A DNA stretch of 64,000 nt, taken from the IMG/VR virus record IMGVR_UViG_3300044971_004534; one strand, written 5' to 3'. Source of the stretch: a virus. The position numbers and the translations under genes are program-made. Positions 49,842-64,000 of this stretch are shown here, in pieces. Position 1 is the stretch's first letter. Every line of letters starts with the position of its first letter. Under the pieces are notes generated by a model. The model saw only the letters and a program-made list of their open reading frames with translations. It made no database searches and was not told the origin of the DNA.

Positions 49842-50600
49842 ATGACCTCCATATTTACCATATTAACTGCAAGCTATAACAATATTTCGTATCTTGAACA
49901 ATGGATGAACAGTATTTTATTACAAGATTACAGGCCTTTACGTGTTTCTTTCGTTGATGACTGCAGCACAGACGGGACAGATCAAAATTTTCATAAATAT
50001 GCTCAAAAATTGGCCAACAAAGACATACAAGTAGAATACGTAAAAAACAGCAAAAGACTTTTTTATGGAAATTGCTTAAAGGTTGCTTACGACATGTCTA
50101 AAGGCGATTTTTTTGGCTCTCTTGATGCTGATGATGGATTAACCCCAGATGCGGTATCTTCGGTCATGGAACAATATAATAAATATCCTCATATTGGGTA
50201 TGTGTATACTCAGTTCAAAATGTGTGATATTCATTTGAATCCAATTAAGCGAGGATTTAGTTCATGTCCTCCACATGGTAGCAGTCTATTAAACGAAGGT
50301 AAGCGCAATAAGCATTGCTATAGTCATTTTAGAACTTTTTCTAATAGAATAGAAAGATTGGAAAAAATATGGGCAAAAGACCTTAAATGTGCGGTGGATA
50401 AATATATGGGATATAGGCTAGAGGAGCTTGCTGACGGCTTATTCCTTGATAGGGAATGCTACCTGTGGAGGACGGGCAGAAAAGACTCTATAGGGCATAC
50501 AGAGCCATCTAGGGCGCAATGGACTAAAGTTATGATGGAAGCCCGTAAGAGAAGAGCAATGTGGAAACTTAGTCCTAGACCTATTTTACATATAAAATGA
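49842..50600 (+). CDS. family 2 glycosyltransferase
   Basis: 'FTILTASYNNISYLEQWMNSILLQDYRPLRVSFVDDCSTDGT' and the DxD motif 'SLDADDG'. The ATG at 49842 is preferred over the track start at 49797, which overlaps the SNF2 gene. Confidence 0.85.
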   Translation: MTSIFTILTASYNNISYLEQWMNSILLQDYRPLRVSFVDDCSTDGTDQNFHKYAQKLANKDIQVEYVKNSKRLFYGNCLKVAYDMSKGDFFGSLDADDGLTPDAVSSVMEQYNKYPHIGYVYTQFKMCDIHLNPIKRGFSSCPPHGSSLLNEGKRNKHCYSHFRTFSNRIERLEKIWAKDLKCAVDKYMGYRLEELADGLFLDRECYLWRTGRKDSIGHTEPSRAQWTKVMMEARKRRAMWKLSPRPILHIK

Positions 50601-52957
50601 AGATTTCTGTTATAACTACACTTTTTAATTATAAGTGTTATATTTTAGAGTGCGTTAAGAGTGTAATATCTCAGGATTTTACAGATCTTGAAATGATTAT
50701 CGTAGATGACGGTTCTTCTGATGGTGGACCAGAATATGTAGAAAGAAAATTTCAAAACGATCCAAGAGTAAAATTAGTTCGTCTATCTAAAAATTATGGA
50801 TATTCTGTTGCTAAAAATGTTGGCATAGCTATGTCTAGCGGAGATTTTATATGTATGCTTGATGCTGACGACATGTTAATGCCAAGCTCCCTGTCCAAGC
50901 GTTATAATAAAATAAAAGAAGGTTTTGACCTGGTTCATGGTTGGGCGTATAATTTTTCAAAAAATAGAAGATGGGAAAATGAATTAAGAAAAAAATGGAT
51001 TGATAATAAAAAGCCAGTTTACCAATGGAAGAATATACATCCGCAATGTGTTCTTTTAAGAAAAAACATTCACAATCTAGTTGGTCTTTATGATGAAGAC
51101 TTAAGATGTAAAAGTGATAGAGAGATGTGGGCTAGAATATACAATCATGGGTTTAAGATAGGATTTATTGACGAACCAGTTGCTCTTTACAGGCAGCATG
51201 GTGATCAAATGCATAAGAGTCCTTGGAAAATAAAGAATAACAAAAGGTTGAGTAGCGAGCTTCTCAGTCTTGTCGAAATAAGAAAGACTGATTTGTCGGA
51301 ATGCAAAATATTATCTAATTATAATTGGAAAGAAAAAATATTGAGTAAGCAAAAATTAAATAATACAGATGCGGAACCTATTGCTAGAGAAAATCCAGCT
51401 GATCTTTATCCAGAAGAGTTTTTTTCAAAGAGGACAAAAGATAAGCACAATTGGGGTGTCGCGATGGGGAAATATTTAGCAATGAAACTTGGCTCTTCTT
51501 CCATGATAGATTGGGGCTGCGGAATAGGCTCGCTTATATCTGGAGCAAAAGAGCAGGGTGTCAATAAAGTGTTGGGGATTGAGGTGGGTTATGAGGCGGC
51601 AAAGCCTTATTTGGTTGAAAATATAAAGCAAGATGTAATGTACGGAAATGCTGCTGAAAAGAGTGATTTTGGCAAATTTGACACTGCAGTATCGGTAGAG
51701 GTTGCAGAACACCTTTTACCAGAACAAGCAGACATGTTTTGTGAAAATATTGCCAATAGCTCTTCTCGCATGATAGTGATTACTGCGGCAAGACCAGGAC
51801 AAGAGGGTGTTTATCATTTTAATTGTCAGCCAAAAGAGTATTGGATAAATAAAATACAAAAATTTGGTTTCTTATACAGATCAGATCTATCTGAAAAAAT
51901 ATCAAAAGGATGGAAAGACAATGTGCCAGGAATACCTTCCTATCTTACGCAGAACGTAATGGTGTTCAAGATAGATAGTAAATGCCCCGAAGACATAAAA
52001 AAAAAGATAAGCAATAAGTTTTTAGCTCAAGATTCAATTAGAATAAGTTTTGACTTACCAGACAATGACTCAAGTGGTAAACATAAGTTTTTTCAAAGAG
52101 TAAGAGAAAACATATCTGATTTTGGTTGTAAGATTGTCAGTTCGCATGAAAAATCAGACATACATTTTTACATCAATAATCCTAATAAAAAATCAATAGT
52201 CAACATAAAAAGACTCGATGGCGTATACTTTGACGGAACTCATGGTACAAAAGTTAGAAATGCTGGCATATTGCATTCTATGAAAGTTTCTGATGGAATA
52301 ATATACCAGAGCAAGTATTGCAAAGATTACGCTTGTAAGATACTTAATTTTAATTCAAATAAGCCTAATGCAATAATATACAATGGATGTGATCCTAGAG
52401 AATTTTTAGTAGAGCCAAAGGACATAGGTTTTCCATACTTTTTAGCTTTATGTAAATGGCGTAGACATAAAAGGCTAAAAGAGTCAGTGGATGGCTTCCT
52501 GAGGGCTGAAATAAACGGAGTAAAGCTAGTTGTTTGTGGTCCACCAGACTATCATGTTTCCCATCCAAGTATAATATATGCTGGAGATTTGCATAGAGAA
52601 GAATTAGCTAGATATATTGCTGGCTGTATTGGTACTGTTCATCTTGCATGGATAGATTGGTGTCCAAATTCAGTAGTAGAGAGCGTAGTGGCTGGCAAGC
52701 AGGTTATTCACACTAATTCTGGAGGCACATCAGAGATAGTAAAACATAGAGGTTACATCGTAAATGATAAAGTTTGGCATGGAGAGCAGGCAAGTCCAAA
52801 AAATCCACCAGACATTAGTATTGATGAAGTTGCAAATGCTTACATAAACAGTTATAAAAATCCAATTTCAAATTTTGAGTATGACGATCTTTTGATATCA
52901 AATTCTTCTAAAAAATATGTAGAGTTTGGAATTTCGGTTTTGAGGAATAAAAAATGA
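50597..52957 (+). CDS. trifunctional fusion: GT2 glycosyltransferase, class I SAM methyltransferase and GT4 (group 1) glycosyltransferase
   Basis: N-terminus 'ISVITTLFNY...IIVDDGSSDG...MLDADD'. Middle 'MIDWGCGIGSLISGA...SVEVAEHL'. C-terminus '...NSVVESVVAGKQVIHTNSGGTSEIV'. Confidence 0.8.
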   Translation: MKISVITTLFNYKCYILECVKSVISQDFTDLEMIIVDDGSSDGGPEYVERKFQNDPRVKLVRLSKNYGYSVAKNVGIAMSSGDFICMLDADDMLMPSSLSKRYNKIKEGFDLVHGWAYNFSKNRRWENELRKKWIDNKKPVYQWKNIHPQCVLLRKNIHNLVGLYDEDLRCKSDREMWARIYNHGFKIGFIDEPVALYRQHGDQMHKSPWKIKNNKRLSSELLSLVEIRKTDLSECKILSNYNWKEKILSKQKLNNTDAEPIARENPADLYPEEFFSKRTKDKHNWGVAMGKYLAMKLGSSSMIDWGCGIGSLISGAKEQGVNKVLGIEVGYEAAKPYLVENIKQDVMYGNAAEKSDFGKFDTAVSVEVAEHLLPEQADMFCENIANSSSRMIVITAARPGQEGVYHFNCQPKEYWINKIQKFGFLYRSDLSEKISKGWKDNVPGIPSYLTQNVMVFKIDSKCPEDIKKKISNKFLAQDSIRISFDLPDNDSSGKHKFFQRVRENISDFGCKIVSSHEKSDIHFYINNPNKKSIVNIKRLDGVYFDGTHGTKVRNAGILHSMKVSDGIIYQSKYCKDYACKILNFNSNKPNAIIYNGCDPREFLVEPKDIGFPYFLALCKWRRHKRLKESVDGFLRAEINGVKLVVCGPPDYHVSHPSIIYAGDLHREELARYIAGCIGTVHLAWIDWCPNSVVESVVAGKQVIHTNSGGTSEIVKHRGYIVNDKVWHGEQASPKNPPDISIDEVANAYINSYKNPISNFEYDDLLISNSSKKYVEFGISVLRNKK

Positions 52958-53895
52958 TTAGTCATGTTATTTTGCACTATAACAGGCCGTGGCTTTTAAA
53001 AGCTCATATATGTTTATTAAAATTATTTTGTCCATCAGTATCTGAAATTGTTATAGCAGACGATGGCTCTGATAAGAGAGTTTTAGACTTAGTACAATCA
53101 TTTGGAGCTGATCATGTATATGTACAGAGTAATCATCGTTTTGAGTGGGGTAAAAGTTCTGCATCTAATACTTTGATGAGTGGTATAAAAAAATGCAAAA
53201 ACAAGTATATTAGTTTTTCTGAGGATGATTTTTTTGTGTGCCCGAATGGTATAGATGATAGCTCTTTTTATAATAATGGAGAGTATCCAAATTCAAAAAT
53301 ATCTGGTGGTGTAGATCCATTTGCAGATTGTCTTTTTTTGTTTAAAAGTCAAAAGGCCATAATGATTCAGCCTTCTAGGGACGCTAATGGATGGAAGGGT
53401 GTTCCATGTACTGGTAAAAATAGATCAAATCAACTGCAATGGTGTCAAATGGATCACGTTAAAAAGACTAGATTTTATTACAGTAATTGGCCTTGGGTCA
53501 TGCCAGCTACGATTGCAAAACACTTAGACATACCTAAGGACTCTGGCATGTGGACAGTTGAAAGTCATTTAAACAAATGGATGGCAAAAAACTTTGGTAC
53601 TGGCAATTGGAACTGGTGTGCCAGCAAGAGAATGTTTGTTCATGTTGGTCTGCCATTTTCCAAAAAAGATATGAGATATTCTGAAAAAACAGAAAAATCT
53701 ATGATAAGGAATGAGCAATCAAAAGCATTTGCAGACTCAATAGGTCAAAGAGAAGCTTTTTCCAATATAGATGATTTTAATAAAATATTTTTAAATAAGT
53801 GGTTAGAGAAAAAAGTAGATATATCCATAAGCGACCTCTCAACAATTGGAATAAAGAATACTTTTTCAAAATTTGCATCAGAGGTAATGGCTTGA
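52954..53895 (+). CDS. GT-A-like glycosyltransferase (paralog A)
   Basis: 'VILHYNRPWLL...VIADDGSD...ISFSEDDFF...YSNWPWVM'. Clear paralog of the next ORF. Confidence 0.5.
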   Translation: MISHVILHYNRPWLLKAHICLLKLFCPSVSEIVIADDGSDKRVLDLVQSFGADHVYVQSNHRFEWGKSSASNTLMSGIKKCKNKYISFSEDDFFVCPNGIDDSSFYNNGEYPNSKISGGVDPFADCLFLFKSQKAIMIQPSRDANGWKGVPCTGKNRSNQLQWCQMDHVKKTRFYYSNWPWVMPATIAKHLDIPKDSGMWTVESHLNKWMAKNFGTGNWNWCASKRMFVHVGLPFSKKDMRYSEKTEKSMIRNEQSKAFADSIGQREAFSNIDDFNKIFLNKWLEKKVDISISDLSTIGIKNTFSKFASEVMA

Positions 53896-54791
53896 ATATA
53901 GATTATGTAGTTCTTCATTGGAATAGGCCATATTTTGCTGAAGCTAATGTAAAATTGGCCAAAATGTATTTTCCATTTATAAGAAACTTTATTTTACTAG
54001 ATGATGGCTCAAGACAGGAGTGCGTTGATGCATTAAAGCCTAACTTTGACATTGTTTTTCAAAATGGCAAGAATCGTAATGAATGGAAAAAAGGAAGTGT
54101 TGGTAGATTGTTTGAGTCTTTTTTTAAGCAGTCTGATGCAGATTTTATTATTTTTACAGAAGACGATTTTTTCCCATGCACATCTTATTTTGATGATACT
54201 AGTACAGACAATACACTAATATCTCCCGATGTATTATTTTCAAAAGATACATGTTTCAAAGACTTGACAAATAAAATAGAAAAAATAAACACCCCATTCT
54301 TTTACCTCCAATTGGCAAAGTCAAATTATGGATGGAAGTGTTTAGAGACTTATGAGTACAGTGATGACTTTTTAAGAGTGGTTCCACAGCCAGAAAAAAG
54401 AATATATAGCAACTGGCCTTGGCTAATGGGCAAGTCTGTATTTAAAAAATGCATGCACACTCTAGGAGAAATCCCAATATGGCAAATGGAAAACATCGTT
54501 GATAAAAATATAAAGAATATCAATAGAATGAAACCATTGTGTGTAAGACAAAAAATGTTTATACACGTCGGATTCATCTGTACAACTAGAAGAGACCAAT
54601 TTAAATCAATAGGGAAATTTAATCAAAATAGATTAAATGGATCAAGTGCTTTTAGCGGCGAAAATCAAGAAAGTCTTGACGCGATAAGAGATGAGTACAT
54701 AGAAAAGTACTTGAATGGCAGTGCAATTAATATTGAGGATCTTTTTATTAAGGGCCTTCATTACGCCCTTAAAGGTTTTATTGCTGCGTAG
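53892..54791 (+). CDS. GT-A-like glycosyltransferase (paralog B), probable TTG start
   Basis: 'VVLHWNRPYFA...ILLDDGSR...IIFTEDDFF...YSNWPWLM'. GAGG 7 nt upstream of TTG at 53892, which overlaps the upstream TGA (TTGA). The track ATG at 53799 would overlap the upstream gene by 97 nt. Confidence 0.5.
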   Translation: MNIDYVVLHWNRPYFAEANVKLAKMYFPFIRNFILLDDGSRQECVDALKPNFDIVFQNGKNRNEWKKGSVGRLFESFFKQSDADFIIFTEDDFFPCTSYFDDTSTDNTLISPDVLFSKDTCFKDLTNKIEKINTPFFYLQLAKSNYGWKCLETYEYSDDFLRVVPQPEKRIYSNWPWLMGKSVFKKCMHTLGEIPIWQMENIVDKNIKNINRMKPLCVRQKMFIHVGFICTTRRDQFKSIGKFNQNRLNGSSAFSGENQESLDAIRDEYIEKYLNGSAINIEDLFIKGLHYALKGFIAA

Positions 54792-55182
54792 GAACTTCTT
54801 GTACTACGCCAGCAAGCGGTATTGGTTGGCTTATTGGCTGCCATCCAGAAAGCAAGTTGCTATCTTTTGGCTTGCCTCCAACTTCCGTATTTACTGCAAC
54901 GGTTACATGGGGCTTGCGTCCGTCTTTGATATCATATCCCTGCACTCCTACAGCTATCACCTTTTCGTCCTTGGCCCATTCTGATGCTGTTAGATTGATA
55001 ATTTTACCTACGTCTTTTTTATTTTTAGCAGGCCCCATGTTTATGGTCATGTGATGCGCATAGATCTTCCATCCTTTTGGAATGAAAGTGCTCATTCTTT
55101 CAATGAGCATTTGATGACTTGCTTGGTCTAGCAAGATTCCAGTATATGAAACTGTGGAGTTGGCTTTTTTGTACCAATTCAT
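54778..55182 (-). CDS. hypothetical protein with two H-x-T-x motifs (possible minimal 2H phosphoesterase)
   Basis: 'AHHMTIN' and 'PHVTVAV' about 50 aa apart. The start 'MNWYKK' (ATG at 55182) is preferred because the track start at 55284 would overlap tRNA-Gln. Confidence 0.3.
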   Translation of the reverse strand: MNWYKKANSTVSYTGILLDQASHQMLIERMSTFIPKGWKIYAHHMTINMGPAKNKKDVGKIINLTASEWAKDEKVIAVGVQGYDIKDGRKPHVTVAVNTEVGGKPKDSNLLSGWQPISQPIPLAGVVQEVPTQQ

Positions 55183-55260
55183 GTCGTATAATTTTATTTC
55201 ACTATTGCGGCTATTCTTTCCTCTCTTATTGCTGCTCTGGATACGATATAAGTAGAGTAT

Positions 55261-55331
55261 TGCCCCGTGATGTAACGGTAGCATCGGAGCCTTTGAAGCT
55301 TTTTGTCTTGGTTCGAATCCAAGCGGGGCAG
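55261..55331 (+). tRNA. tRNA-Gln (anticodon TTG)
   Basis: Hand-folded. Acceptor TGCCCCG/CGGGGCA (U1-A72). D arm ATGT-AACGGTA-GCAT. Anticodon stem GGAGC/GCTTT with loop CTTTGAA. Variable TTGT. T arm CTTGG-TTCGAAT-CCAAG. Discriminator G. Confidence 0.8.
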
Positions 55332-55335
55332 TTTT

Positions 55336-55731
55336 ATGAGTAAGAATGATCTTTCAAAAATTGAATTTATATTTCCAAAACTTCTTCAAATTTGGGATAA
55401 AGCACCAGATGCAAGACCTGCGTCTATGTCTAACGTAAAAAAAGCACACGATCTTTGGGAATGGTGTGATGAAAGATCTATGGATTTTGAAGATCTTGAA
55501 ACATACTTAAGTATGTTTATTGTAGAAAAAATGTCTAAGTTTTTTACAATTTGCGTAACAGTAAAAAACGGTATACAAGAAGTTAAAAATATAGATGAAA
55601 ATATATCCGTTTCTGGATTCAATATTATATCTTCAATGTCTGAGTTGGTAAAAGCATCTGACAATATTATGCAAATTAAAAGCAGTCCTATTGAAATTAT
55701 AAAAAGAACTGTTCTTAATTCTGCTAGATGA
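55336..55731 (+). CDS. hypothetical protein (131 aa)
   Basis: The ATG at 55336 lies just after tRNA-Gln. The track start at 55303 lies inside the tRNA. Confidence 0.5.
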   Translation: MSKNDLSKIEFIFPKLLQIWDKAPDARPASMSNVKKAHDLWEWCDERSMDFEDLETYLSMFIVEKMSKFFTICVTVKNGIQEVKNIDENISVSGFNIISSMSELVKASDNIMQIKSSPIEIIKRTVLNSAR

Positions 55732-56617: not shown

Positions 56618-56632
56618 TGGATATATAAAGAT

Positions 56633-57235: not shown

Positions 57236-57341
57236 GATAGATAAATACGCTTTTAAAATATGGATGAGCGGCTTTGTCGTTGGTGTAATTTTAACTTTTT
57301 CTTTTGTCAGCTTAGTGCTAATGTTAAATTCAGCACACTAA
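57210..57341 (+). CDS. possible small membrane protein (26-43 aa) not in the ORF track
   Basis: My translation: (L)KNSHKENKIDKYAFKIW-MSGFVVGVILTFSFVSLVLMLNSAH*. GGGAG 8 nt upstream of TTG at 57210. An internal ATG lies at 57264. Fills the otherwise unassigned gap exactly. Confidence 0.3.
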   Translation: MKNSHKENKIDKYAFKIWMSGFVVGVILTFSFVSLVLMLNSAH

Positions 57342-57708: not shown

Positions 57709-58326
57709 TTATCTAATATTCCTATAATCCTTAAATGTATTTTCTATGTCAGAGTGATCTGCTCTTTGCCATGCTAGGTGTGGTCTAAATCCATAGCATG
57801 GCATATGTTTTTGCAAAAATGCCAAATGAAGATCTGCTGGTTTTGTAAATATTACATTATCGCTAAATCTTTCCATAATTTTTTCTAATGCCGTTCTTTT
57901 AATTGCATAACAATGAGTTGTATATGTTTTTCTTAACTTATGGACATGCCTATTTATCATCATTATTGGATTATGCCTATGACTGCCTCCAAAATATAGC
58001 ATTTGCCAATCCTTTGGCACCATTGGGTAGTATTCTTGAAATCTTTTTCCTAAGTTTCTGTCAAATTCTACATCATCTTCCATAATCAAAGCTGTTTTTA
58101 TTGTTTTGTCTGCTAGGATCATCTCAAATACCTTGCGGTGCGACATGCAGCATCCAGCTGCCCCAGGCTTTAACTCCCCTATGTTTGTAAGGGTGCTTCC
58201 ATCAATTGCGTCTACAAATTGAACGTTTAATTGAAATTCAGAAAATATCTGTTCACATCTTGCCCTTCTGTCTTGTCTTCTTGGCAAGTTTATGCAATAC
58301 ATTTTATTAAAATCTCTTAATAACAT
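57709..58326 (-). CDS. family 25 glycosyltransferase (LOS/LPS galactosyltransferase-like)
   Basis: 'MYCINLPRRQDRRARCEQIF...VQFVDAIDG', 'GAAGCCMSHRKVFE', 'ALIMEDDVEFD'. Confidence 0.8.
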   Translation of the reverse strand: MLLRDFNKMYCINLPRRQDRRARCEQIFSEFQLNVQFVDAIDGSTLTNIGELKPGAAGCCMSHRKVFEMILADKTIKTALIMEDDVEFDRNLGKRFQEYYPMVPKDWQMLYFGGSHRHNPIMMINRHVHKLRKTYTTHCYAIKRTALEKIMERFSDNVIFTKPADLHLAFLQKHMPCYGFRPHLAWQRADHSDIENTFKDYRNIR

Positions 58327-58359
58327 ATAATTATTTTGTCGAAAAAATACAATATTACC

Positions 58360-59103
58360 ATGACTAAATATTTAATTAATTATGCAGCTAAGGGAACTAA
58401 TTGTTCTGCAAACCACCCAAATGGCGGTTATTTTAACGCACAAATATTAAACAGTAAAACTGGCAAGGAAGTTGCTGGATTTGATCACGTAATAAGTTAC
58501 GGGAAACATTCGTTGTCAACTGATTTTGTAAACAGGCACGAAAAACATTTCCAATACACCAGAGGCGCAGGATACTGGGCCTGGAAGCCTCAAATATGTC
58601 TAGATGCTTTAGATAAAATAAGTAATGGTGACATATTGATGTATTCTGATTCTGGATGTCATTTTGTTCACTCTATGAGCCCTGTTTTTGAAAGATTGGA
58701 AAATGCAAAAAGTAATGTTTTGTGTTTCAATATAGCTCAGATCGAAAAAGATTGGAACAAGAGAGATTGCTTCGTGAGTTTAAATTGTGATTCCCCAGAA
58801 TATACGGATACAAAACAAATTATGAGCACTTTCTTGCTATGCAAAAAAAACGATTTTGCTTATCATATAATTAATGAGTGGCAAAGGCTTGTGAGTGATT
58901 TTCATATGGTGTCCGATGAATTTTTATCTCCTAGTAAAACTCCTAATTATCCATCTTTTAAAGAGCATAGGCATGATCAGTCGCTATTGAGCTTAGTATG
59001 CAAAAAAAATTCGGTATCGATGATGGAAGATATCACTGAATGGGGAGATCCGCATTTGAGAGGCACTCCTCAGATTGTAGCCCATACAAGAAGGACGGAT
59101 TAA
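58360..59103 (+). CDS. hypothetical protein, possible glycosyltransferase
   Basis: 'GAGYWAWKPQI...GDILMYSDSGC'. The call rests on context in the glycan operon. The ATG at 58360 is preferred over the TTG at 58336. Confidence 0.35.
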   Translation: MTKYLINYAAKGTNCSANHPNGGYFNAQILNSKTGKEVAGFDHVISYGKHSLSTDFVNRHEKHFQYTRGAGYWAWKPQICLDALDKISNGDILMYSDSGCHFVHSMSPVFERLENAKSNVLCFNIAQIEKDWNKRDCFVSLNCDSPEYTDTKQIMSTFLLCKKNDFAYHIINEWQRLVSDFHMVSDEFLSPSKTPNYPSFKEHRHDQSLLSLVCKKNSVSMMEDITEWGDPHLRGTPQIVAHTRRTD

Positions 59104-59871
59104 ATGAAAATTGATAAGGTCATACATGCTTCAGACGACAAAGCTTTTTATTTAGATTTTTGGCCCATAGTTTCTAAAATATGGAAGAAAAAGTTCCAAG
59201 TTGAACCAGTTCTTTTGTATTTTGGTAATGGAAATCCGTCTACAGAATTTGGCACAGTTATTAAAATGCCTATTATCCCAGGTGTTCCAGTAAATACTCA
59301 GTGTCAAATATCTCGTTACTGGATTCCTTCAACCGATCTTGACGCAACTTGGATGACATCGGATATTGATATGTTGCCAATATCAAGACATTATTTTCTA
59401 GGATGGCCTTTAGATGTTCCTGATGACAAGTGGCTTCATCTTAATGCGGACCCAGGAGAGCACCACCCCAATATTGTTTATCTATGCTGCTACAACGTAG
59501 CCAAAGGAAGAACTTTTAAGGAAATTTTAGAATTGCCAGAAAGTTTTGAAGAATTTGTAAAAAAAGAATTCTGGAAAGAAAATAGTCACAATTATACTCC
59601 AAATGGTCTTTCGCATGCCTTGCCTCATTGGGGAGCAGATGAGATGTGGTCTAGTAGAATGTTAAATAGATTTTTAGATCAATCAAGAATAGTTCGTCAA
59701 TTTAGAGATTGTGGGCCTCACGGATGCCATAGAATTGATCGATTGAACTGGGAATGGGATGAATCAAAAGTAATCTCCGAAGATTACTATGATTGTCATG
59801 CAATTAGGCCATATTCAAAACATAAAGACTCAATTGACAAGCTAACTAACCTAATACTTAAAAATGTTTAA
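59104..59871 (+). CDS. hypothetical protein with DxD-like motif, possible glycosyltransferase
   Basis: 'WMTSDIDMLPIS'. Starts 1 nt after the upstream stop. Confidence 0.3.
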   Translation: MKIDKVIHASDDKAFYLDFWPIVSKIWKKKFQVEPVLLYFGNGNPSTEFGTVIKMPIIPGVPVNTQCQISRYWIPSTDLDATWMTSDIDMLPISRHYFLGWPLDVPDDKWLHLNADPGEHHPNIVYLCCYNVAKGRTFKEILELPESFEEFVKKEFWKENSHNYTPNGLSHALPHWGADEMWSSRMLNRFLDQSRIVRQFRDCGPHGCHRIDRLNWEWDESKVISEDYYDCHAIRPYSKHKDSIDKLTNLILKNV

Positions 59872-60616
59872 TTTTTCTATAGAATATAATGACCTTGTTT
59901 GGGGTGATAGGTTTTCAAGCATCCCAGGAGTAAAGTTTTTAAAAATTGATGATGCTCTTAATTTTATCAAAAACAACAGCTCAAAAATCAATATAGTAAC
60001 TCATAATGGAGACATAGCGGTGGATGAAAAGTTTACACCATATGCTAACAAGTTTCCAAAATGGTATGGTCAAAATATTGTTACCGGATCTCCAAAATTT
60101 TCTCCAATTCCGATAGGATTAGAGAATGACTATGTTGCGAACTCGGTTGAAAAAAAGCACATGCTTGTTAGACTTTCTAATGAGCGTAGCTATATAATGC
60201 CTAGTAAAATGCTTTATATAAATCACAACATAGGAACAAATCCAGGCGAAAGAAATAAACCATATCATTTATTTGCTACCAGTAATTGGTCTACTGTTGA
60301 GCATAGTGGTGGATTCAGCTATCAAGAGCATTATTACTCCAAAATATTGGATCATTTTTTTATGCTTAGTCCACCAGGAAACGGCATAGATTGTCACAGA
60401 ACTTGGGAGATATTATATCTTAAAAGAATTCCCATACTAAAAAGAGTTGGAAGACTAGAAGAGCTTTATTCTGGACTTCCGGTAGTGTTTATTGATAATT
60501 ACGAAGAAATATCTGAAGAATTTTTACGTAATAAGTATGATGAAATTTTTAACAAACCATTTAATTTTAATAAACTAAAATTTACATATTGGCAAAACTT
60601 AATAGAGCATTCATAA
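59864..60616 (+). CDS. exostosin-like (GT47-like) glycosyltransferase
   Basis: 'FFMLSPPGNGIDCHRTWEILYLKRIPILK' resembles the exostosin C-terminal motif 'FCL.P.G......R..EA...G.IPV'. Confidence 0.45.
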   Translation: MFNFSIEYNDLVWGDRFSSIPGVKFLKIDDALNFIKNNSSKINIVTHNGDIAVDEKFTPYANKFPKWYGQNIVTGSPKFSPIPIGLENDYVANSVEKKHMLVRLSNERSYIMPSKMLYINHNIGTNPGERNKPYHLFATSNWSTVEHSGGFSYQEHYYSKILDHFFMLSPPGNGIDCHRTWEILYLKRIPILKRVGRLEELYSGLPVVFIDNYEEISEEFLRNKYDEIFNKPFNFNKLKFTYWQNLIEHS

Positions 60617-61245
60617 TGAGAATACAATCATATCAGGACATGCTTGAGAATTGGTCTATTAGCAGATATGGTCCCGGCTTTCACGGAGACTTAAGAATGA
60701 TAGAGTGCGTTCATGATATTATAAAATCATGTGATTATTTTATAGAAACAGGTACTAATTTAGGAAATACTCTTTTTTTTGTGTCTCGTAATTTTGATAT
60801 ATTTTGTTACTCTTGCGAGATCTCAGATGCCACTCCAGAGTATGTAAAATACAAAGATAATGTGTGCTTTAGAAAAGAAACATCTCCTCAATTTTTAATG
60901 AATATCGTTAATGAAAACCCTGAAATAGTAGAAAAAAAATGCTTTTTTTATTTAGATGCTCATAGCGATACCCAGTCTGTTTGGCAGGAAGAAATAAAAT
61001 TTATTCTACAATCATTTAAAAATTTTTGTATTATAATAGACGACTTTAATATTAATAATATTTTATTTTCTCATAATGGCTACAGTACAAAAGAATTATT
61101 TAGCATTACTAGCAATGCAAGAGTCAAAGTTTATTCGCCTTCATATAGTGAGTCAACTTCTAATTTTCATTCGCTAACAGGTTGGGTTTTGGTTACTAAT
61201 AGAAATGATTTAAAATTTATAAATGTGAAAGAAATAAATGAATAG
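60616..61245 (+). CDS. possible class I methyltransferase-fold protein (CmcI/TylF-like)
   Basis: 'YFIETGTNLGNTLFFVS' and 'FFYLDAHSD'. TAATG overlap upstream. A weak call. Confidence 0.3.
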   Translation: MRIQSYQDMLENWSISRYGPGFHGDLRMIECVHDIIKSCDYFIETGTNLGNTLFFVSRNFDIFCYSCEISDATPEYVKYKDNVCFRKETSPQFLMNIVNENPEIVEKKCFFYLDAHSDTQSVWQEEIKFILQSFKNFCIIIDDFNINNILFSHNGYSTKELFSITSNARVKVYSPSYSESTSNFHSLTGWVLVTNRNDLKFINVKEINE

Positions 61246-61816
61246 AAAAATATCAGAAAAAGAAAGTTTTGAATTTTGGTTTAATAACTCAGAGTTTGAT
61301 GAACATGATCAATTTGGATCAAAGTATTATGTTAATGATTTTTACAACAAGATAGTTTCTAAGCTAGATGTTCCCAAAGATGGACTTATAGTGGTTGCTG
61401 GAACTCATAAAGCGGTTTCTTTCAATATCCTGTGTGAAATGTTTGGTAGCGAGAGATGTGTTGGTTTAGATTTATACAATCCTTCAGGGCATGATAGGGT
61501 TCTCATTAAGGACTGCTTATCGCTATCTGACTCTGATGATATACCCATAGCATTCGCGCATAACGATGTTGGCAGTCTTTCTCACACCCCAGATGTGAAG
61601 ATACATACTCACAGGTGGCTAACAAAAAATATCGTTCGAGGTGGATACTTAATGGGTAACAATAATTTAAATAGAGCAAAATTTAAATTTGAAGAATATA
61701 TGATTGATAATGGATTTAATAATACTAATTTTTCAGATTTAGATGCAAGCATATTCGATGTATCTTCTTTCCCAAAAGAAAGAATAGAAGGATACATGCT
61801 CTCAAGGAAGAGATAA
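61238..61816 (+). CDS. hypothetical protein (192 aa)
   Basis: ORF coupled to its neighbours in the glycan operon. No firm motif. Confidence 0.45.
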   Translation: MNRKISEKESFEFWFNNSEFDEHDQFGSKYYVNDFYNKIVSKLDVPKDGLIVVAGTHKAVSFNILCEMFGSERCVGLDLYNPSGHDRVLIKDCLSLSDSDDIPIAFAHNDVGSLSHTPDVKIHTHRWLTKNIVRGGYLMGNNNLNRAKFKFEEYMIDNGFNNTNFSDLDASIFDVSSFPKERIEGYMLSRKR

Positions 61817-61818
61817 AT

Positions 61819-62454
61819 ATGAATGATACAAATTTCGACACCTCTTTTACTCAGCTTGTTTCTTATCCTCGAACTGGTAGTCATTATGTAAGAATAGTTA
61901 TTGAGGATTGTACAGGGTCTCCATGTGCTCCAACTTCTTTTCTAGGAAATGAAGGCGTAAAGCCATGGGGTTTTCATCTTCATGATAGAATTGTTGGTAA
62001 AGGAGATGAGGGTGTGGTGTCTGGATTTGACAAAGTTATCTATTTGTATAGAAACCCGGTTGACACCATCTTTTCGCACATTAAATATCAAGGTACGGAA
62101 GATTGGATTTCAATAGCTAGCGAATATAAAATGCATTTGCTAAGATGGTTGCACAACCACTCTGACTGTAAAAGTGTTTTAGTTAAAAATTATGATGACA
62201 TATTAAGAAATCCAGTTCGTCACTTTAATGATATTCTTAATTATATTAATTTTGAAGTAGACAAGAATAGACTGTCAACGGCCATAGGAAGAACAACAAT
62301 TGGCAGAGTAAAGGCGTTAACGGACAAGATTGACAACAAAGTAGTCAGCGATAGTCATTTTGACGGAAAATACGTGATAGACAAATCTGTTTTTATTTCA
62401 AATCATGGTGAAGAAATACATAAAATGTTTGATGGAATTTATACTTATGAGTGA
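61819..62454 (+). CDS. sulfotransferase
   Basis: 5'-PSB-like 'SYPRTGSHYVRIVIE' (compare PKSGTTW) and 3'-PB-like 'VIYLYRNPVDTIFS' (compare RNPxDxxxS). Confidence 0.55.
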   Translation: MNDTNFDTSFTQLVSYPRTGSHYVRIVIEDCTGSPCAPTSFLGNEGVKPWGFHLHDRIVGKGDEGVVSGFDKVIYLYRNPVDTIFSHIKYQGTEDWISIASEYKMHLLRWLHNHSDCKSVLVKNYDDILRNPVRHFNDILNYINFEVDKNRLSTAIGRTTIGRVKALTDKIDNKVVSDSHFDGKYVIDKSVFISNHGEEIHKMFDGIYTYE

Positions 62455-63388
62455 ATATAAAATAATAAATTTTATTGACGAAAATATCAGTCATGCTAAA
62501 ACCTGGAAACACGGCAGCATTATGTGCGGCTGTCGTGTTGGCGAAGAAAATATTGGCAAATATTACACTCCCCCAAAAAATATATGGGTAAAAAAGCAAA
62601 AAAGATTTCATAAAAATGAAATAGACAGCGGAATATCAGTTTTTACCGATCAGACATTTTGCACAGTAAAGAATTATGAATCAGATTTTAAAGTTGCTTT
62701 AATATTAGAGCCTCCTATAGAAGCAAGAGGCGCTTATGAAAAAATATTAGACTATGAAAACGACTTTGATTTTATTTTTACTTTTGAAAAACGATTGCTT
62801 GAGCGAAACAGTGAGAAGTATAAGTTTATGCCCGCAGACTTTGTGACACTACAAGACGAAGTACACAGTATAAAAGAGAAAAATAAGCATTTATCCATGG
62901 TGTATTCTGGAATGCGTGGTCATAATAGGGATCTTAGACATGAAGTGGCAAACGTTTTTAAAAATAATATAGACCTTTATGGAAGCGGTAGCCCAAAAGG
63001 ACATCTAGATTTAAAGTCAGATAGTCTTGTTGACTACAGATTTTCTATAGTTATAGAAAATTCCACTCCATTTGATTACTATTTTACAGAAAAAATACTA
63101 GATTGTTTTATTGTTGGGAATATTCCAATATATAATGGAACTAAATCAATTGATAAATTTTTTGATAAACGTGGTTTTTTTACATGGTCATCATTAGAAG
63201 AGCTTAAATCTATTTTAGATAGATTGTCGGAAGAAGAATATTTAAAAATGCTACCTTTTATAAAAACCAATTATGAGCTAGCTAAAAAATATGTAAGTGC
63301 AGATGACGTTATGACAGAATTAATATATTCATGTTTTGAAAATCCGACGACAAATACTATGGAAAAATATATTTACCAATGGAGATAG
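62447..63388 (+). CDS. GT10-like alpha-1,3-fucosyltransferase
   Basis: 'RFSIVIENSTPFDYYFTEKILDCFIVGNIPIYNG' matches the FucT motif 'F.L.FEN.....YVTEK......G.IP.Y.G'. The ATG at 62447 overlaps the upstream stop. Confidence 0.65.
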   Translation: MSEYKIINFIDENISHAKTWKHGSIMCGCRVGEENIGKYYTPPKNIWVKKQKRFHKNEIDSGISVFTDQTFCTVKNYESDFKVALILEPPIEARGAYEKILDYENDFDFIFTFEKRLLERNSEKYKFMPADFVTLQDEVHSIKEKNKHLSMVYSGMRGHNRDLRHEVANVFKNNIDLYGSGSPKGHLDLKSDSLVDYRFSIVIENSTPFDYYFTEKILDCFIVGNIPIYNGTKSIDKFFDKRGFFTWSSLEELKSILDRLSEEEYLKMLPFIKTNYELAKKYVSADDVMTELIYSCFENPTTNTMEKYIYQWR

Positions 63389-63389
63389 T

Positions 63390-64000
63390 ATGAAAATTTT
63401 ATATTATGATACGCAAAAGTATCCATTCAGAGATTTATTGCAAACAGTTTATAGCACAGATTTAACTAGCTTAGATACTGATGATGCTAAAAAGAACTTA
63501 ACTTTAGGCAATGACACTAAAACTTCTTTACACAAAGAGTTCTATAAAAAAATAGATGCTGGTTGGCCTGAGTTTATGGACTTGTACAAATCTTTCATAT
63601 CAAACGTCATACATCCTATGTTTGAAGATGACATTTTGATATATCAAAAAACTCCTGGAATTAGATTTTGCAGACCTGGGGCTAAAGCTGTATATAAATG
63701 GCATTCTGATGGAGATAAGGATCACAAGCATCCTCTAGGAGAAGTAAATATATTTTTGCCGCTCACTAAATGTTTTGATACTAATTCTGTATGGTTTGAG
63801 ACAATACCTGGAATGGGCGATTGGCGTCCTTTAGACATTGATTACGGTCAATTTTATATAGGATATTGGAATCAATGCAGACACGGAAATAAAGAGAATT
63901 CAACAGGCAAGACTAGGGTAAGTTTTGATTTCAGGGTAATTCCAGGATTTGCATACGATGAAAATTGTGATTTACAAAGCTGTACTACAAAGCAGCGATT
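63390..64000 (+). CDS. possible cupin/Fe(II)-dioxygenase-like protein, 3' end outside window (not in ORF track)
   Basis: My translation from the ATG at 63390 (GGAG upstream) is open to the window end: 'MKILYYDTQKYPF...KWHSDGDKDHKHPLGEVNIFLPL...QCRHGNKENSTGKTRVSFDFRV'. HxD...H spacing suggests a double-stranded beta-helix. Confidence 0.35.
   Translation, partial: MKILYYDTQKYPFRDLLQTVYSTDLTSLDTDDAKKNLTLGNDTKTSLHKEFYKKIDAGWPEFMDLYKSFISNVIHPMFEDDILIYQKTPGIRFCRPGAKAVYKWHSDGDKDHKHPLGEVNIFLPLTKCFDTNSVWFETIPGMGDWRPLDIDYGQFYIGYWNQCRHGNKENSTGKTRVSFDFRVIPGFAYDENCDLQSCTTKQR

What the first reader, a model, noticed from the sequence alone, without database searches (positions are those of the whole stretch)
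49842..64000. Glycan synthesis and tailoring locus of at least 14 kb, with about 10 glycosyltransferase-like genes plus methyl-, sulfo- and possibly oxygenase functions
Seen:
- Recognisable genes are GT2 (49842), a GT2-MT-GT4 fusion (50597), two GT-A paralogs (52954, 53892), GT25 (57709, minus strand), an exostosin-like gene (59864), a sulfotransferase (61819), a GT10 FucT-like gene (62447) and a cupin-like ORF (63390, truncated).
- Several unknown ORFs are coupled to these by 1-8 nt overlaps.
- The locus continues past the window edge.
- A WbpP/GalE-like epimerase sits separately at 2168.

Inference: the element can build a complex, probably fucosylated, methylated and sulfated glycan. Candidate acceptors are the Ser-linker giant proteins or the host envelope, for example receptor masking or superinfection exclusion. 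A locus this large is unusual in a phage-like element.
Basis: partly seen in the sequence, partly recalled or inferred. Interest (0 to 1): 0.7.

Follow-up and report, generated by a model that had tools for sequence, protein, structure and literature searches.

The report
Giant glycan-building island in a huge phage
An uncultured freshwater phage with a genome of roughly 300 kb devotes at least 22 kb (about 31 kb in a close relative) to soluble sugar-building enzymes, including a relative of a chlorovirus capsid-glycan enzyme, so it probably makes its own complex fucosylated, methylated and sulfated glycan, whose target is still unknown.

Summary
Every named gene is at the stated coordinates. 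It also carries a sulfotransferase with both PAPS-binding motifs and a weak 2OG-oxygenase-like ORF.

- A 2.9-kb non-glycan insert with a tRNA-Gln splits the locus.
- The locus runs at least 8.4 kb past the window. That stretch holds a short DegT-like gene, a split transketolase-like pair, a TylF methyltransferase, an epimerase/dehydratase, further GT10, GT25-like and GT2 genes, and a GDP-fucose-synthase-like gene.
- A syntenic 223.6-kb relative has about 17 GT genes in about 31 kb.

The element is a phage, not a bacterial O-antigen locus. A 99.3% identical contig comes from a DNase-treated, CsCl-purified lake virome.

None of the roughly 50 island proteins tested has a membrane segment. No initiating transferase, flippase, polymerase or exporter is present.

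The best reading is autonomous cytoplasmic glycan synthesis. Virion proteins are the favoured acceptor but this is unproven. Remodelling of the host envelope is the main rival. I rate it a new variant of a known kind, of moderate to high interest.

The parts
49842..50600 (+). GT2 glycosyltransferase. The ORF can also start at 49797. It has a DAD motif.
   Evidence: Pfam PF00535, E 1.4e-19. DxD motif.
50597..52957 (+). Three-domain enzyme of 786 aa: GT2, class I SAM methyltransferase, GT1/GT4-type GT-B.
   Evidence: Pfam domains. Motif I DWGCGIG at residue 305. Full-length homologues occur in only 12 clusters, all on metagenomic contigs of at most 230 kb.
52954..53895 (+). GT-A (GT2-like) glycosyltransferase; paralog of the next gene.
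   Evidence: PF00535, 27.4 bits. Chondroitin synthase 2z87, E 4.4e-5. Paralogy E 5.6e-25.
53892..54791 (+). GT-A paralog with a TTG start and a DAD motif.
   Evidence: 26% identity over 316 aa to 52954-53895. Gene call. DAD at residue 82.
54778..57689 (.). Insert with no recognisable glycan function that splits the island. It holds a 2H-phosphoesterase-like ORF (54778-55284, minus strand), tRNA-Gln(TTG) at 55260-55332, and five small ORFs without matches (55336-55731 +, 55732-56001 -, 56006-56617 +, 56633-57235 +, 57342-57689 -).
   Evidence: No Pfam hits. Only phrog_36523 among PHROGs. tRNA. HxT/S motifs. Conserved in position in L029, L028 and L015.
57709..58326 (-). GT25 glycosyltransferase.
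   Evidence: PF01755, E 9.1e-18.
58360..59103 (+). Unannotated GT-A-fold glycosyltransferase family, GT6/GT8-like, with invariant D91, D97 and HRHDQS.
   Evidence: No Pfam, NCBIfam or PDB sequence hit. AlphaFold model pLDDT 92.3. Foldseek against PDB: GT6, XXYLT1 and LARGE1, E about 1e-6. BFVD viral proteins at TM 0.74-0.85.
59104..59871 (+). Second unannotated GT-A-fold family with an invariant SDIDM (DxD) motif.
   Evidence: More than 372 homologues, none with a Pfam hit. Invariant columns. Model pLDDT 95.8. Foldseek: chondroitin synthase, LgtC, GT6, glycogenin, and PBCV-1 A064R-D1 at rank 49. Unrelated to the 58360 family at profile level.
59864..60616 (+). GT114 glycosyltransferase, a homologue of the chlorovirus PBCV-1 A075L beta-xylosyltransferase.
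   Evidence: PDB 8avq, 8q8i and 8asa, E 4.9e-28. 33% identity over 201 aa. D73, N148, R158, N202 and R208 of A075L are all conserved (with PMC11571054).
60616..61245 (+). Unknown 209-aa protein, translationally coupled to its neighbours. An IETGT motif is reminiscent of class I methyltransferases, but this is unproven.
   Evidence: No significant hit in Pfam, NCBIfam, PHROGs or a PDB profile search. Conserved in L029, L011 and L098.
61238..61816 (+). Unknown 192-aa protein. In other viral contigs it is fused in one ORF with homologues of the 2OG-oxygenase-like and short DegT-like genes.
   Evidence: Fusion ORFs L077:13873-15861 and L098:12157-14139, 51-53% identity.
61819..62454 (+). PAPS-dependent sulfotransferase.
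   Evidence: PF00685, 27.4 bits against a cut-off of 22. PRTGS at residue 17 and RNPVDTIFS at residue 78.
62447..63388 (+). GT10 (alpha-1,3/4-fucosyltransferase-like).
   Evidence: PF00852, 29.6 bits against a cut-off of 23.9. ENSTPFDYYFTEK. Paralog beyond the window, E 3e-9.
63390..64000 (+). 2OG-Fe(II) oxygenase-like ORF, cut by the window edge. The full gene encodes 234 aa and ends 94 nt beyond the window.
   Evidence: TIGR04324, E 1.2e-7, below the cut-off. Full gene seen in L001.
2168..3130 (+). Satellite WbpP/WbgU-like UDP-hexose or UDP-HexNAc 4-epimerase, 47 kb upstream of the island.
   Evidence: PF01370, E 2.9e-50. PDB WbpP 1sb8, E 7.8e-42.

Best explanation
The region is the first two thirds or so of a large glycan-biosynthesis island in an uncultured freshwater huge phage. 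The island spans at least 22.6 kb and 29 genes here, and about 31 kb with about 17 GT genes in a syntenic relative. The phage genome is probably about 300 kb.

Shown:
- The island encodes enzymes that make and tailor nucleotide sugars. These are SDR epimerases/dehydratases, a GDP-fucose-synthase-like gene, a short DegT-like protein, a split transketolase-like pair and a 2OG-oxygenase-like protein. In relatives there are also a GDP-mannose 4,6-dehydratase, a full DegT and a DHQS-like enzyme.
- It encodes many glycosyltransferases of at least eight kinds: GT2, GT4, GT25, GT10, GT114 and two unclassified GT-A families, plus GT11 in relatives.
- It encodes tailoring enzymes: SAM methyltransferases and a PAPS sulfotransferase.
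- All of these proteins are predicted to be soluble.

Inferred mechanism:
- During infection the enzymes work in the host cytoplasm. They convert host UDP- and GDP-sugars into unusual donors, including GDP-L-fucose and probably UDP-xylose-type donors.
- They then build a branched glycan sugar by sugar, probably fucosylated and xylosylated, and O-methylate and sulfate it.
- No phage-encoded lipid-carrier initiation, flipping, polymerisation or export is involved.
- The acceptor I think most likely is one or more virion proteins (capsid, decoration or fibre proteins) that are glycosylated before or during assembly. Chloroviruses, Megavirinae and some mycobacteriophages do this. Cassette swapping between related phages would then diversify the virion surface.

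Confidence:
- About 0.9 that this is a phage-borne glycan-synthesis island.
- About 0.45 that virion proteins are the acceptor.
- The figure given below is for the whole statement.
For: Phage identity:
- The window is 100% identical to a 161-kb JGI contig, and variants at 99.1-99.4% identity occur in five other samples, on scaffolds up to 301 kb.
- One variant (L002, run ERR2814753) was assembled from a Lake Soyang virome that was filtered below 0.2 um, DNase-treated and CsCl-purified (PMC7553992).
- The same sequence and relatives at 68% identity are held in IMG/VR.
- The flanks carry an SNF2 helicase, a T4-type dNMP kinase, a clamp loader, a RuvC-like resolvase, a sigma-like factor and tRNAs. 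More than half of the ORFs have no family match.

Enzymology.

Cytoplasmic and autonomous:
- The highest 19-residue Kyte-Doolittle mean is 1.64 (at Rossmann-type N-termini) among the 29 island proteins here and 32 ORFs of two relatives (about half beyond the island). None looks like a membrane segment.
- No WecA/WbaP, Wzx, Wzy, ABC-transporter or GtrABC-like gene was found among them.

Viral rather than host-derived gene pool:
- The GT114 ORF is homologous to PBCV-1 A075L, which builds the capsid N-glycan core.
- 99 IMG/VR stretches encode GT114 relatives, including giant-virus MAG contigs.
- The best structural matches of the 58360 family are viral proteins, TM 0.74-0.85.
- Only 1 of its 44 homologues lies on a megabase-scale bacterial chromosome.
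- The three-domain fusion is confined to this phage lineage.
- The island's G+C equals that of the rest of the window.
- The best bacterial relative of the epimerase found among 185,579 species genomes is only 26% identical.

Long-term retention with modular variation:
- 27 of 29 genes are syntenic in a 223.6-kb relative at 40-92% amino-acid identity.
- Other relatives lack defined cassettes.
- This resembles the clade-specific glycan clusters that decorate Megavirinae fibrils (PMC9614988).

Precedent for soluble viral GTs that glycosylate capsids in the cytoplasm: PBCV-1.
Against: - No glycoprotein, glycan or expression data exist, and the phage is uncultured.
- No recognisable protein-priming glycosyltransferase (of the NGT, GT41 or GtfA/B type) was identified.
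- Most GTs of bacterial O-antigen and capsule pathways are also soluble or peripheral. The absence of membrane proteins therefore does not exclude action on host undecaprenyl-linked or lipid A-core acceptors, with the host supplying the flippase and ligase.
- GT25, GT10, GT11 and the TIGR04324-type genes are typical of bacterial LPS and surface-polysaccharide loci.
- No capsid, portal, terminase or tail gene was seen in the roughly 82 kb I could read. The island lies next to replication genes rather than structural genes.
- The GDP-mannose dehydratase was found only in the relative, not in the readable part of this phage.
Confidence: 0.5

Rival explanations
1. The phage uses the island to remodel the host's envelope glycans. 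The phage GTs act at the cytoplasmic membrane face on host undecaprenyl-linked O-antigen or capsule units, or on lipid A-core. Host flippase, polymerase and ligase then export the altered glycan. This masks receptors, causing superinfection exclusion or fewer progeny lost to cell debris. It is the reading proposed for the P-SSM2 'LPS' clusters.
For: - GT25, GT10, GT11, GT2, GT4 and the TIGR04324-type gene are families typical of LPS, LOS and capsule loci.
- P-SSM2 is a precedent: 24 genes in two clusters, with this hypothesis attached (PMC1079782).
- O-antigen GTs are normally soluble or peripheral, so the lack of membrane segments is compatible.
- Cassette variation between relatives could track host serotypes.
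Against: - No phage-encoded initiating transferase, flippase, polymerase, ligase or Gtr-type membrane component is present.
- The genes look long resident in viruses rather than recently captured from a host O-antigen locus.
- The nearest characterised homologue, A075L, works on a capsid glycan.
- An investment of about 10% of the genome is large for receptor masking in a lytic cycle.
Confidence: 0.3
2. The window is an ordinary bacterial O-antigen or capsule locus in a chromosome, or in a prophage-free genomic island.
For: The gene families are those of bacterial surface-polysaccharide loci.
Against: - A 99.3% identical contig comes from a DNase-treated, CsCl-banded virome filtered below 0.2 um.
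- Of 36-39 collection blocks that carry these genes, none has a contig above 1 Mb.
- The sequence is held in IMG/VR.
- The flanks are phage-type replication and nucleotide genes, giant orphan ORFs and tRNAs. There are no housekeeping genes.
- No Wzx, Wzy, ABC-transporter or initiating transferase is present.
Confidence: 0.02
3. Some or all of the GTs hypermodify the phage DNA with glycans, as with the glucosyl- or arabinosyl-hydroxymethylcytosine of T-even-like phages, to evade restriction.
For: - A dCMP deaminase (35547-36101) and a T4-type dNMP kinase lie upstream.
- A separate 532-aa GT1 lies near the kinase.
- Viral GTs are reported to hypermodify DNA with diverse glycans (cited in PMC12619734).
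Against: - No dCMP or dUMP hydroxymethylase was seen in the roughly 82 kb read.
- Fucosyltransferases, GT114, a sulfotransferase, O-methyltransferases and amino- or branched-sugar genes are not known components of DNA glycosylation.
- About 17 GTs is far more than any DNA modification system uses.
Confidence: 0.05

Closest known systems
Chlorovirus PBCV-1 capsid N-glycosylation machinery (A064R, A075L, A111/114R, A061L, GMD A118R, GMER A295L)
   Same: - Virus-encoded GTs that are mostly soluble.
- A true homologue of A075L (GT114) with the catalytic residues conserved.
- A three-transferase-domain enzyme that combines two GT domains with a methyltransferase, as A064R does.
- Fucosyltransferases plus virus-encoded GDP-fucose pathway genes.
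- A freshwater habitat.
   Different: - The host is a bacterium, not an alga, and the element is a tailed-phage-type genome.
- The domain order and folds of the fusion differ: GT2-MT-GT4 here, against GT-A, a novel GT, then MT in A064R.
- There are many more GTs: 12 readable here and about 17 in the relative, against 8 in PBCV-1.
- A sulfotransferase is present.
- The genes are clustered and translationally coupled, whereas they are dispersed in PBCV-1.
- Attachment to the capsid is not shown here.
Glycan gene clusters of Megavirinae and CroV (6-21 genes in Megavirinae; 38 kb and 34 ORFs in CroV)
   Same: - Clustered nucleotide-sugar genes, several GTs (some multi-domain), methyltransferases and sulfate-related genes.
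- Clade-specific cassette variation (PMC9614988).
- A comparable size.
- Contigs binned as giant-virus MAGs share a cassette with this phage at 36-60% identity.
   Different: - This is a prokaryotic virus with operon-like coupling.
- The sugars and GT families differ.
- Here the sulfate step is a sulfotransferase, not a SAT/APS kinase.
- The giant-virus glycans are shown to decorate fibrils. Here the acceptor is unknown.
Cyanophage P-SSM2 'LPS' gene clusters
   Same: [quoted passage not shown]
   Different: - No detectable close sequence relationship: no DNA match at about 85% identity or above in the phage collection.
- GT114 homologues occur in only 2 of 50,697 phage records, and neither is a cultured phage.
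- This island is larger in GT count and adds sulfation.
Mycobacteriophage virion glycosylation (Freeman et al. 2023, known to me only through its citation in PMC12619734)
   Same: Phage-encoded GTs glycosylate capsid and tail-tube subunits in the cytoplasm. This is precedent for the favoured acceptor.
   Different: Those systems have only a few GTs, located next to structural genes. I could not read the paper, so this comparison rests on the citation and my own knowledge.
Moraphages (freshwater jumbo phages of 200-307 kb, predicted Bacteroidota hosts)
   Same: The same habitat and size class. Four core orthologous groups are putative GTs (PMC12619734).
   Different: Membership was not tested because no moraphage sequences were at hand. 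That paper describes no large glycan island.

Membership tests
CAZy GT114 (A075L-type inverting GT-B xylosyltransferase), for ORF 59864-60616 | Significant sequence similarity to A075L across most of the protein. | tested here: met
   phmmer E 4.9e-28. Query residues 45-249 align to chain residues 70-280, 33% identity over 201 aa.
CAZy GT114 (A075L-type inverting GT-B xylosyltransferase), for ORF 59864-60616 | Catalytic base Asp73 and the donor- and phosphate-binding residues Asn148, Arg158 and Arg208. | tested here: met
   These align with D50, N120, R130 and the R of DCHRTWE. N202 is also conserved (PPGNG). Alignment, read against the residue roles given in PMC11571054.
CAZy GT114 (A075L-type inverting GT-B xylosyltransferase), for ORF 59864-60616 | UDP-xylose donor and beta-xylosyl transfer to O-4 of fucose. 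| not testable with these tools
   Needs an enzyme assay. Donor specificity cannot be read from 33% identity.
GT10 fucosyltransferase, for ORF 62447-63388 | Pfam GT10 C-terminal domain above the gathering score, plus the alpha-1,3-FucT motif (ENS....Y.TEK). | tested here: met
   29.6 bits against a cut-off of 23.9. ENSTPFDYYFTEK at residue 204.
GT10 fucosyltransferase, for ORF 62447-63388 | A supply of GDP-L-fucose (GMD plus GMER). | tested here: inconclusive
   - A GMER-like gene starts just beyond the last readable GT2. Its first 55 aa are 76% identical to the relative's gene, which best matches annotated GDP-L-fucose synthases.
- GMD (E 3.6e-116) was found only in the relative.
- The host could also supply the donor.
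PAPS-dependent sulfotransferase (PF00685 fold), for ORF 61819-62454 | The 5'-phosphosulfate-binding loop and the 3'-phosphate-binding motif. | tested here: met
   PRTGS at residue 17 and RNPVDTIFS at residue 78. Pfam 27.4 bits against a cut-off of 22. The motif definitions are from my own knowledge of the family.
Virus-encoded autonomous glycosylation system (chlorovirus or Megavirinae type) | The element is a virus. | tested here: met
   - A 99.3% identical contig in a nuclease-treated, CsCl-banded virome.
- IMG/VR membership.
- Phage-type flanking genes.
- Caveat: no capsid or terminase gene lies within the roughly 82 kb read.
Virus-encoded autonomous glycosylation system (chlorovirus or Megavirinae type) | The virus's own soluble GTs plus its own nucleotide-sugar enzymes. 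| tested here: met
Virus-encoded autonomous glycosylation system (chlorovirus or Megavirinae type) | The glycan is attached to virion proteins. | not testable with these tools
   Needs glycoproteomics of virions or a reconstitution experiment.
Bacterial O-antigen or capsule locus (Wzx/Wzy- or ABC-transporter-dependent) | An initiating phosphoglycosyltransferase (WecA or WbaP), a flippase and polymerase or an ABC transporter, and a chain-length regulator. | tested here: not met
   No Pfam hit of these kinds and no predicted membrane segment in the 29 island proteins here or the 32 ORFs examined in relatives (about half beyond the island).
Bacterial O-antigen or capsule locus (Wzx/Wzy- or ABC-transporter-dependent) | A chromosomal context. 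| tested here: not met
Seroconverting-phage glycan modification (GtrABC or O-acetyltransferase type) | Membrane-bound GtrA flippase, GtrB bactoprenol glucosyltransferase and a serotype-specific GtrC. | tested here: not met
   None of the island proteins has a membrane segment.

The most novel reading that the evidence does not exclude
A bacteriophage carries a full, giant-virus-style, host-independent cytoplasmic glycosylation factory. It would coat its own virion (capsid or giant poly-Ser-linked fibre proteins) with a complex fucose- and xylose-containing, methylated and sulfated glycan. The factory is built partly from the same enzyme families as the chlorovirus capsid-glycan core: GT114, possibly an A111/114R-like GT-A domain, and the GDP-fucose pathway. 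Its cassettes would be exchanged between huge phages and nucleocytoplasmic giant viruses that share freshwater habitats. That would make glycan 'serotype' switching a general strategy of large viruses across domains of life.
Probability: 0.3. Interest if true: 0.8.

Novelty: new variant of a known kind. Interest (0 to 1): 0.55.

Why it matters
Virus-encoded glycosylation that does not depend on the host is well documented only for giant viruses of eukaryotes and, on a small scale, for mycobacteriophages.

This island shows that huge phages can carry a glycan toolkit as large as those of giant viruses. It has 12 GT genes readable here and about 17 in a close relative, together with nucleotide-sugar, methylation and sulfation enzymes. 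It draws on the same rare families. GT114 is present in only 2 of 50,697 phage records.

It also yields concrete leads:
- Two widespread GT-A-fold families with no annotation.
- A three-domain GT2-MT-GT4 enzyme confined to this lineage.
- A Rosetta-stone fusion that ties three unknown genes to one function.

If the glycan sits on the virion, it would affect adsorption, grazing, immune or lectin recognition, and the colloidal behaviour of large phages in lakes. If it sits on the host, it is an unusually elaborate form of receptor masking.

Tried and rejected
Searches that found nothing:
- Megablast of 24 kb against 50,697 phage records: no match.
- An exact 37-mer from beyond the window in IMG/VR: no match.
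- tblastn of two of the giant ORFs against the phage collection: no match.
- PHROGs on 20 ORFs: only a RuvC-like resolvase, a Dps-like protein and one family of unknown function.
- Pfam on the three giant ORFs: only weak dockerin and tachylectin hits in the third.
- Promoter and terminator scan of 49-64 kb: counts no higher than in shuffled sequence.
- PDB sequence and profile searches for 58360, 59104 and 60616: nothing significant.
- Profile-profile comparison of the two new GT-A families with each other, and of the 60616 family with the TylF family: no relationship. My guess that 60616-61245 is a methyltransferase therefore stays unproven.

Searches of limited yield:
- The scan of 185,579 species genomes with the epimerase gave only a 26%-identical MAG hit, so there is no host clue.
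- The metagenome scan did not return the source contig, only relatives.
- I could not reach capsid, terminase or portal genes. Contig look-ups extend only 10 kb beyond window genes.
- The Freeman et al. paper on mycobacteriophage glycosylation is not held.

Interpretations rejected:
- A chromosomal O-antigen locus.
- Gtr-type seroconversion.
- DNA hypermodification as the main role.
- Alternative genetic code: ORFs of up to 3,931 aa read through in table 11.

Full report
**1. What is in the window**

- 49797/49842-50600 is a GT2 (E 1.4e-19).
- 50597-52957 encodes a 786-aa protein with three domains.
  - An N-terminal GT2 domain scores E 3.4e-32.
  - A central class I SAM-methyltransferase region scores E 1.8e-4, below Pfam's gathering score, but motif I (DWGCGIG) is present.
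  - A C-terminal GT1/GT4-type domain scores E 2.9e-4. It is supported by precomputed PF00534/PF13692 hits in homologues at 56-61% identity.
- 52954-53895 is a weak GT2 that scores above the cut-off. Its neighbour 53892-54791 is a clear paralog (26% identity over 316 aa, E 5.6e-25).
- 57709-58326 on the minus strand is GT25 (E 9e-18).
- 61819-62454 is a sulfotransferase. It scores above the cut-off and has both PAPS-binding motifs, PRTGS and RNPVDTIFS.
- 62447-63388 is GT10, with the ENSTPFDYYFTEK fucosyltransferase motif.

Genes within each block are joined by overlaps of 0-8 nt or gaps of 1-2 nt. The separate epimerase at 2168-3130 is WbpP/WbgU-like.

**2. Refinements to the observation**

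*The 'exostosin-like' gene is a GT114.*
- ORF 59864-60616 is a bona fide homologue of PBCV-1 A075L. A075L is the beta-xylosyltransferase that founded CAZy family GT114 and adds xylose to the fucose of the chlorovirus capsid N-glycan core.
- phmmer gives E 4.9e-28 against PDB 8avq, 8q8i and 8asa, with 33% identity over 201 aligned residues.
- The catalytic base Asp73 and the residues Asn148, Arg158, Asn202 and Arg208 are all conserved (read against PMC11571054).

*Two ORFs with no Pfam, NCBIfam or PDB sequence match turn out to be GT-A-fold proteins.*
- The model of 58360-59103 (pLDDT 92.3) matches GT6 blood-group transferases, XXYLT1 and LARGE1 (E about 1e-6). It matches uncharacterised viral proteins much better, at TM 0.74-0.85. 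These include proteins from uncultured Caudovirales, a Hyperionvirus protein, an 845-aa protein M1HIA0 and a Synechococcus phage S-SRM01 GT.
- The model of 59104-59871 (pLDDT 95.8) matches chondroitin synthase, LgtC, GT6 and glycogenin, and PBCV-1 A064R domain 1 at rank 49. Its family has an invariant SDIDM (DxD) motif.
- The two families are unrelated at the profile level.

*Other points.*
- The window therefore holds 9 GT genes with 10 GT domains.
- The truncated ORF at 63390 matches the 2OG-Fe(II) oxygenase of the 'sporadic carbohydrate cluster' (TIGR04324) only weakly: E 1.2e-7, well below the curated cut-off.
- The locus is not continuous. Positions 54778-57689 carry six ORFs with no recognisable glycan function on both strands. 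One looks like a 2H phosphoesterase, with HMTI and HVTV motifs. A tRNA-Gln lies at 55260-55332. This insert is conserved in position in relatives.

**3. Beyond the window**

An exact-protein look-up with the sulfotransferase found the element in at least 36 blocks of public assemblies.
- The window is 100% identical to JGI contig Ga0453138_0000025 (161 kb).
- Five other samples hold variants at 99.1-99.4% identity, on scaffolds up to 301 kb.

The next 8.4 kb encodes, in order:
- the rest of the oxygenase-like gene;
- a short (227 aa) DegT-family protein;
- a transketolase N-terminal-like subunit;
- an unknown 281-aa protein;
- a TylF-type O-methyltransferase;
- a transketolase pyrimidine-binding subunit;
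- a 345-aa SDR epimerase/dehydratase;
- a 318-aa protein with faint methyltransferase hits;
- a second GT10 on the minus strand;
- a GT25-like gene on the minus strand;
- another GT2.

The last gene that can be read begins just after this GT2. Its first 55 residues are 76% identical to a gene of the relative that best matches annotated GDP-L-fucose synthases. The readable island is thus 22.6 kb and 29 genes, 12 of them GT genes.

*A close relative.* The 223.6-kb IMG/VR contig IMGVR_UViG_3300042326_002445 is syntenic for 27 of these 29 genes at 40-92% amino-acid identity. There the island continues with another GT2, the fucose-synthase-like gene, a second dehydratase, two FkbM methyltransferases, GT11, GT10, GT25 and a GT2-like gene. 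That makes about 17 GT genes in about 31 kb. Non-glycan genes follow, including purA. A GDP-mannose 4,6-dehydratase (E 3.6e-116) lies about 8 kb further on.

*Another relative.* L015 continues with GT11, a full DegT, a DHQS-like enzyme, an SDR, a SIS-domain protein and a class III aminotransferase.

*Upstream of the window.* There is a further 532-aa GT1, a T4-type dNMP kinase and a clamp loader.

**4. What the element is**

Nothing supports a bacterial chromosome.
- Run ERR2814753, from which a 53.8-kb contig 99.3% identical to the island was assembled, is a Lake Soyang virome. It was prepared by 0.2-um filtration, FeCl3 flocculation, DNase treatment and CsCl banding at dsDNA-phage density (PMC7553992).
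- The same sequence and relatives at 68% identity are in IMG/VR.
- No contig above 1 Mb carries these genes.
- Relatives come from lake metagenomes.
- The window's other genes fit a huge phage:
  - SNF2 helicase, RuvC-like resolvase and dCMP deaminase;
  - a sigma-70-region-2 protein and a SET-domain protein;
  - a MoxR-plus-VWA/metallopeptidase pair;
  - a TilS-like PP-loop protein and an IMPDH/GMP-reductase-like protein;
  - a Dps-like protein and two tRNAs;
  - three tandem orphan giant ORFs of 1,946, 3,931 and 2,617 aa.
- Caveat: I could not reach capsid, portal or terminase genes.
- The lineage could belong to the recently described freshwater 'moraphages' (200-307 kb; four core GT groups; PMC12619734). 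I could not test this.

**5. How it most likely works**

*Shown:*
- The island combines nucleotide-sugar synthesis and tailoring, many GTs of different folds and families, methyltransferases and a sulfotransferase.
- None of the 29 island proteins, nor the 32 ORFs examined in two relatives (about half of which lie beyond the island), has a plausible membrane segment.
- There is no initiating phosphoglycosyltransferase, flippase, polymerase, ABC transporter or Gtr-type component.

*Inferred:*
- The enzymes act in the cytoplasm and assemble a branched glycan step by step. The glycan is fucosylated and probably xylosylated, then methylated and sulfated.
- The acceptor is the open question. I favour virion proteins, at about 0.45, for these reasons:
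  - The gene pool looks viral rather than host-derived. Its elements are GT114; the best structural neighbours of the 58360 family being viral; only 1 of 44 homologues on a bacterial chromosome; the fusion confined to this lineage; G+C equal to the rest of the genome; and no close bacterial relative of the epimerase.
  - The island is retained across diverged relatives with cassette-type variation. This is how Megavirinae glycan clusters behave.
  - Chloroviruses are a direct precedent for soluble viral GTs building capsid glycans in the cytoplasm.
- The main rival, at about 0.3, is remodelling of host LPS or capsule through host export machinery, as proposed for P-SSM2. O-antigen GTs are also soluble or peripheral, so the lack of membrane proteins does not exclude it.
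- The poly-Ser tracts in two of the giant ORFs are real. Nothing links them to the island.

**6. Comparative observations**

- GT114 relatives are common in uncultured viruses and rare in catalogued phages.
  - 99 IMG/VR stretches encode a relative, including contigs binned as giant-virus MAGs.
  - 6,296 representatives at 50% identity match at E <= 1e-3, and 3,212 at E <= 1e-10, in a library of 1.84 billion proteins. CAZy listed 178 members in 2024.
  - Only 2 of 50,697 phage records have one. One is the 642-kb huge phage LR756502.1, with two tandem copies next to DegT-like and GT2 genes.
- The block 58360-64771 behaves as a variable cassette.
  - L028 lacks 60616-64771.
  - L015 lacks 58360-64771.
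  - AT-rich viral contigs L077 (a giant-virus MAG contig) and L098 carry GT114, both new GT-A families, GT25 and the downstream genes.
- In L077 and L098, homologues of three separate genes here are fused into a single ORF of 661-663 aa at 36-60% identity. The three are the oxygenase-like 63390, the short DegT-like gene just beyond the window, and the unknown 61238. This argues that they act together.
- Even at 99% nucleotide identity, strain L003 differs from the window's strain in gene content immediately after the last GT2.

**7. Novelty and verdict**

Virus-encoded glycan clusters are a known kind. Examples are chloroviruses, Megavirinae, CroV's 38-kb cluster, P-SSM2's 24 genes and the few GTs of mycobacteriophages. 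This is a new variant for four reasons:
- It is in a bacteriophage and has the largest GT complement I could find described for one.
- It contains a chlorovirus-type GT114.
- It contains two unannotated GT-A families and a lineage-specific GT2-MT-GT4 enzyme.
- It contains a sulfotransferase.

Its acceptor hypotheses remain untested, and its claim of unusual size is somewhat overstated. I score interest at 0.55. The finding is not a new principle, but it gives a concrete and testable link between huge-phage and giant-virus glycobiology.

Noticed in passing
window 54778-57689 (tRNA-Gln at 55260-55332; ORF 54778-55284, minus strand): A 2.9-kb insert with no recognisable glycan function splits the island. 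It holds a tRNA-Gln(TTG), an ORF with two HxT/S motifs (HMTI, HVTV) typical of 2H phosphoesterases, and five small ORFs without matches. It is conserved in position in relatives but evolves faster (31-80% identity).
   Followed up: partly
window 6115-11955, 11952-23747, 23747-31600: Three tandem, translationally coupled giant ORFs of 1,946, 3,931 and 2,617 aa. The second and third have poly-Ser runs of up to 22 residues. Pfam gives only weak dockerin and tachylectin-like hits, all in the third. tblastn of the first and third found no homologue in 50,697 phage records.
   Followed up: partly
L077:13873-15861 and L098:12157-14139 (compare window 63390-64000, 61238-61816, and the gene just beyond the window): In AT-rich viral contigs (24-25% G+C), one of them binned as a giant-virus MAG, a single ORF of 661-663 aa fuses homologues of three separate genes of this phage. 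These are the 2OG-oxygenase-like gene, the short DegT-like gene (60% identity) and the unknown 192-aa gene (51-53% identity).
   Followed up: yes
L003 from 20468 onwards, compared with L001 (about 8.3 kb beyond the window end): Two strains that are 99.1% identical over 20.5 kb diverge abruptly right after the last GT2. The 301-kb scaffold carries a homologue of a 248-aa gene of the relative (L107:11703-12449), where the window's strain goes straight to the fucose-synthase-like gene. This is gene-content microdiversity inside the island.
   Followed up: partly
L134 = LR756502.1 434010-474519: The published but unannotated 642-kb huge phage has two tandem GT114-like genes with a DegT-like gene, an epimerase and a GT2 within about 20 kb. 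It and a marine viral single-cell contig are the only 2 of 50,697 phage records with a GT114 homologue.
   Followed up: partly
window 46656-46742: A tRNA-Ser(GGA) gene lies between the Dps-like DUF5856 gene and the SNF2 helicase. It is notable given the long poly-Ser tracts in the giant ORFs. I did not examine codon usage in those tracts.
   Followed up: no
window 32046-34954 (minus strand), 36037-37441, 41212-43072: Other accessory genes typical of huge phages:
- a MoxR-like AAA ATPase with a DUF2201 metallopeptidase/VWA partner;
- a sigma-70-region-2 protein followed by a SET-domain protein;
- a TilS-like PP-loop ATPase that overlaps an IMPDH/GMP-reductase-like gene by about 110 nt.
   Followed up: no
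L023:406-2004 (about 9 kb upstream of window position 1): A further 532-aa GT1/GT4 glycosyltransferase sits apart from the island, near a T4-type dNMP kinase and a clamp loader. It could be a candidate for a different role, for example DNA or another acceptor.
   Followed up: no
BFVD hit M1HIA0: An 845-aa viral protein with no name in the tables at hand matches the 58360-59103 model at TM 0.80. From memory, M1H-prefixed accessions are chlorovirus proteins, and the length is close to the three-domain A111/114R (860 aa). If so, a second enzyme of the chlorovirus capsid-glycan core has a relative here. This is not verified.
   Followed up: no
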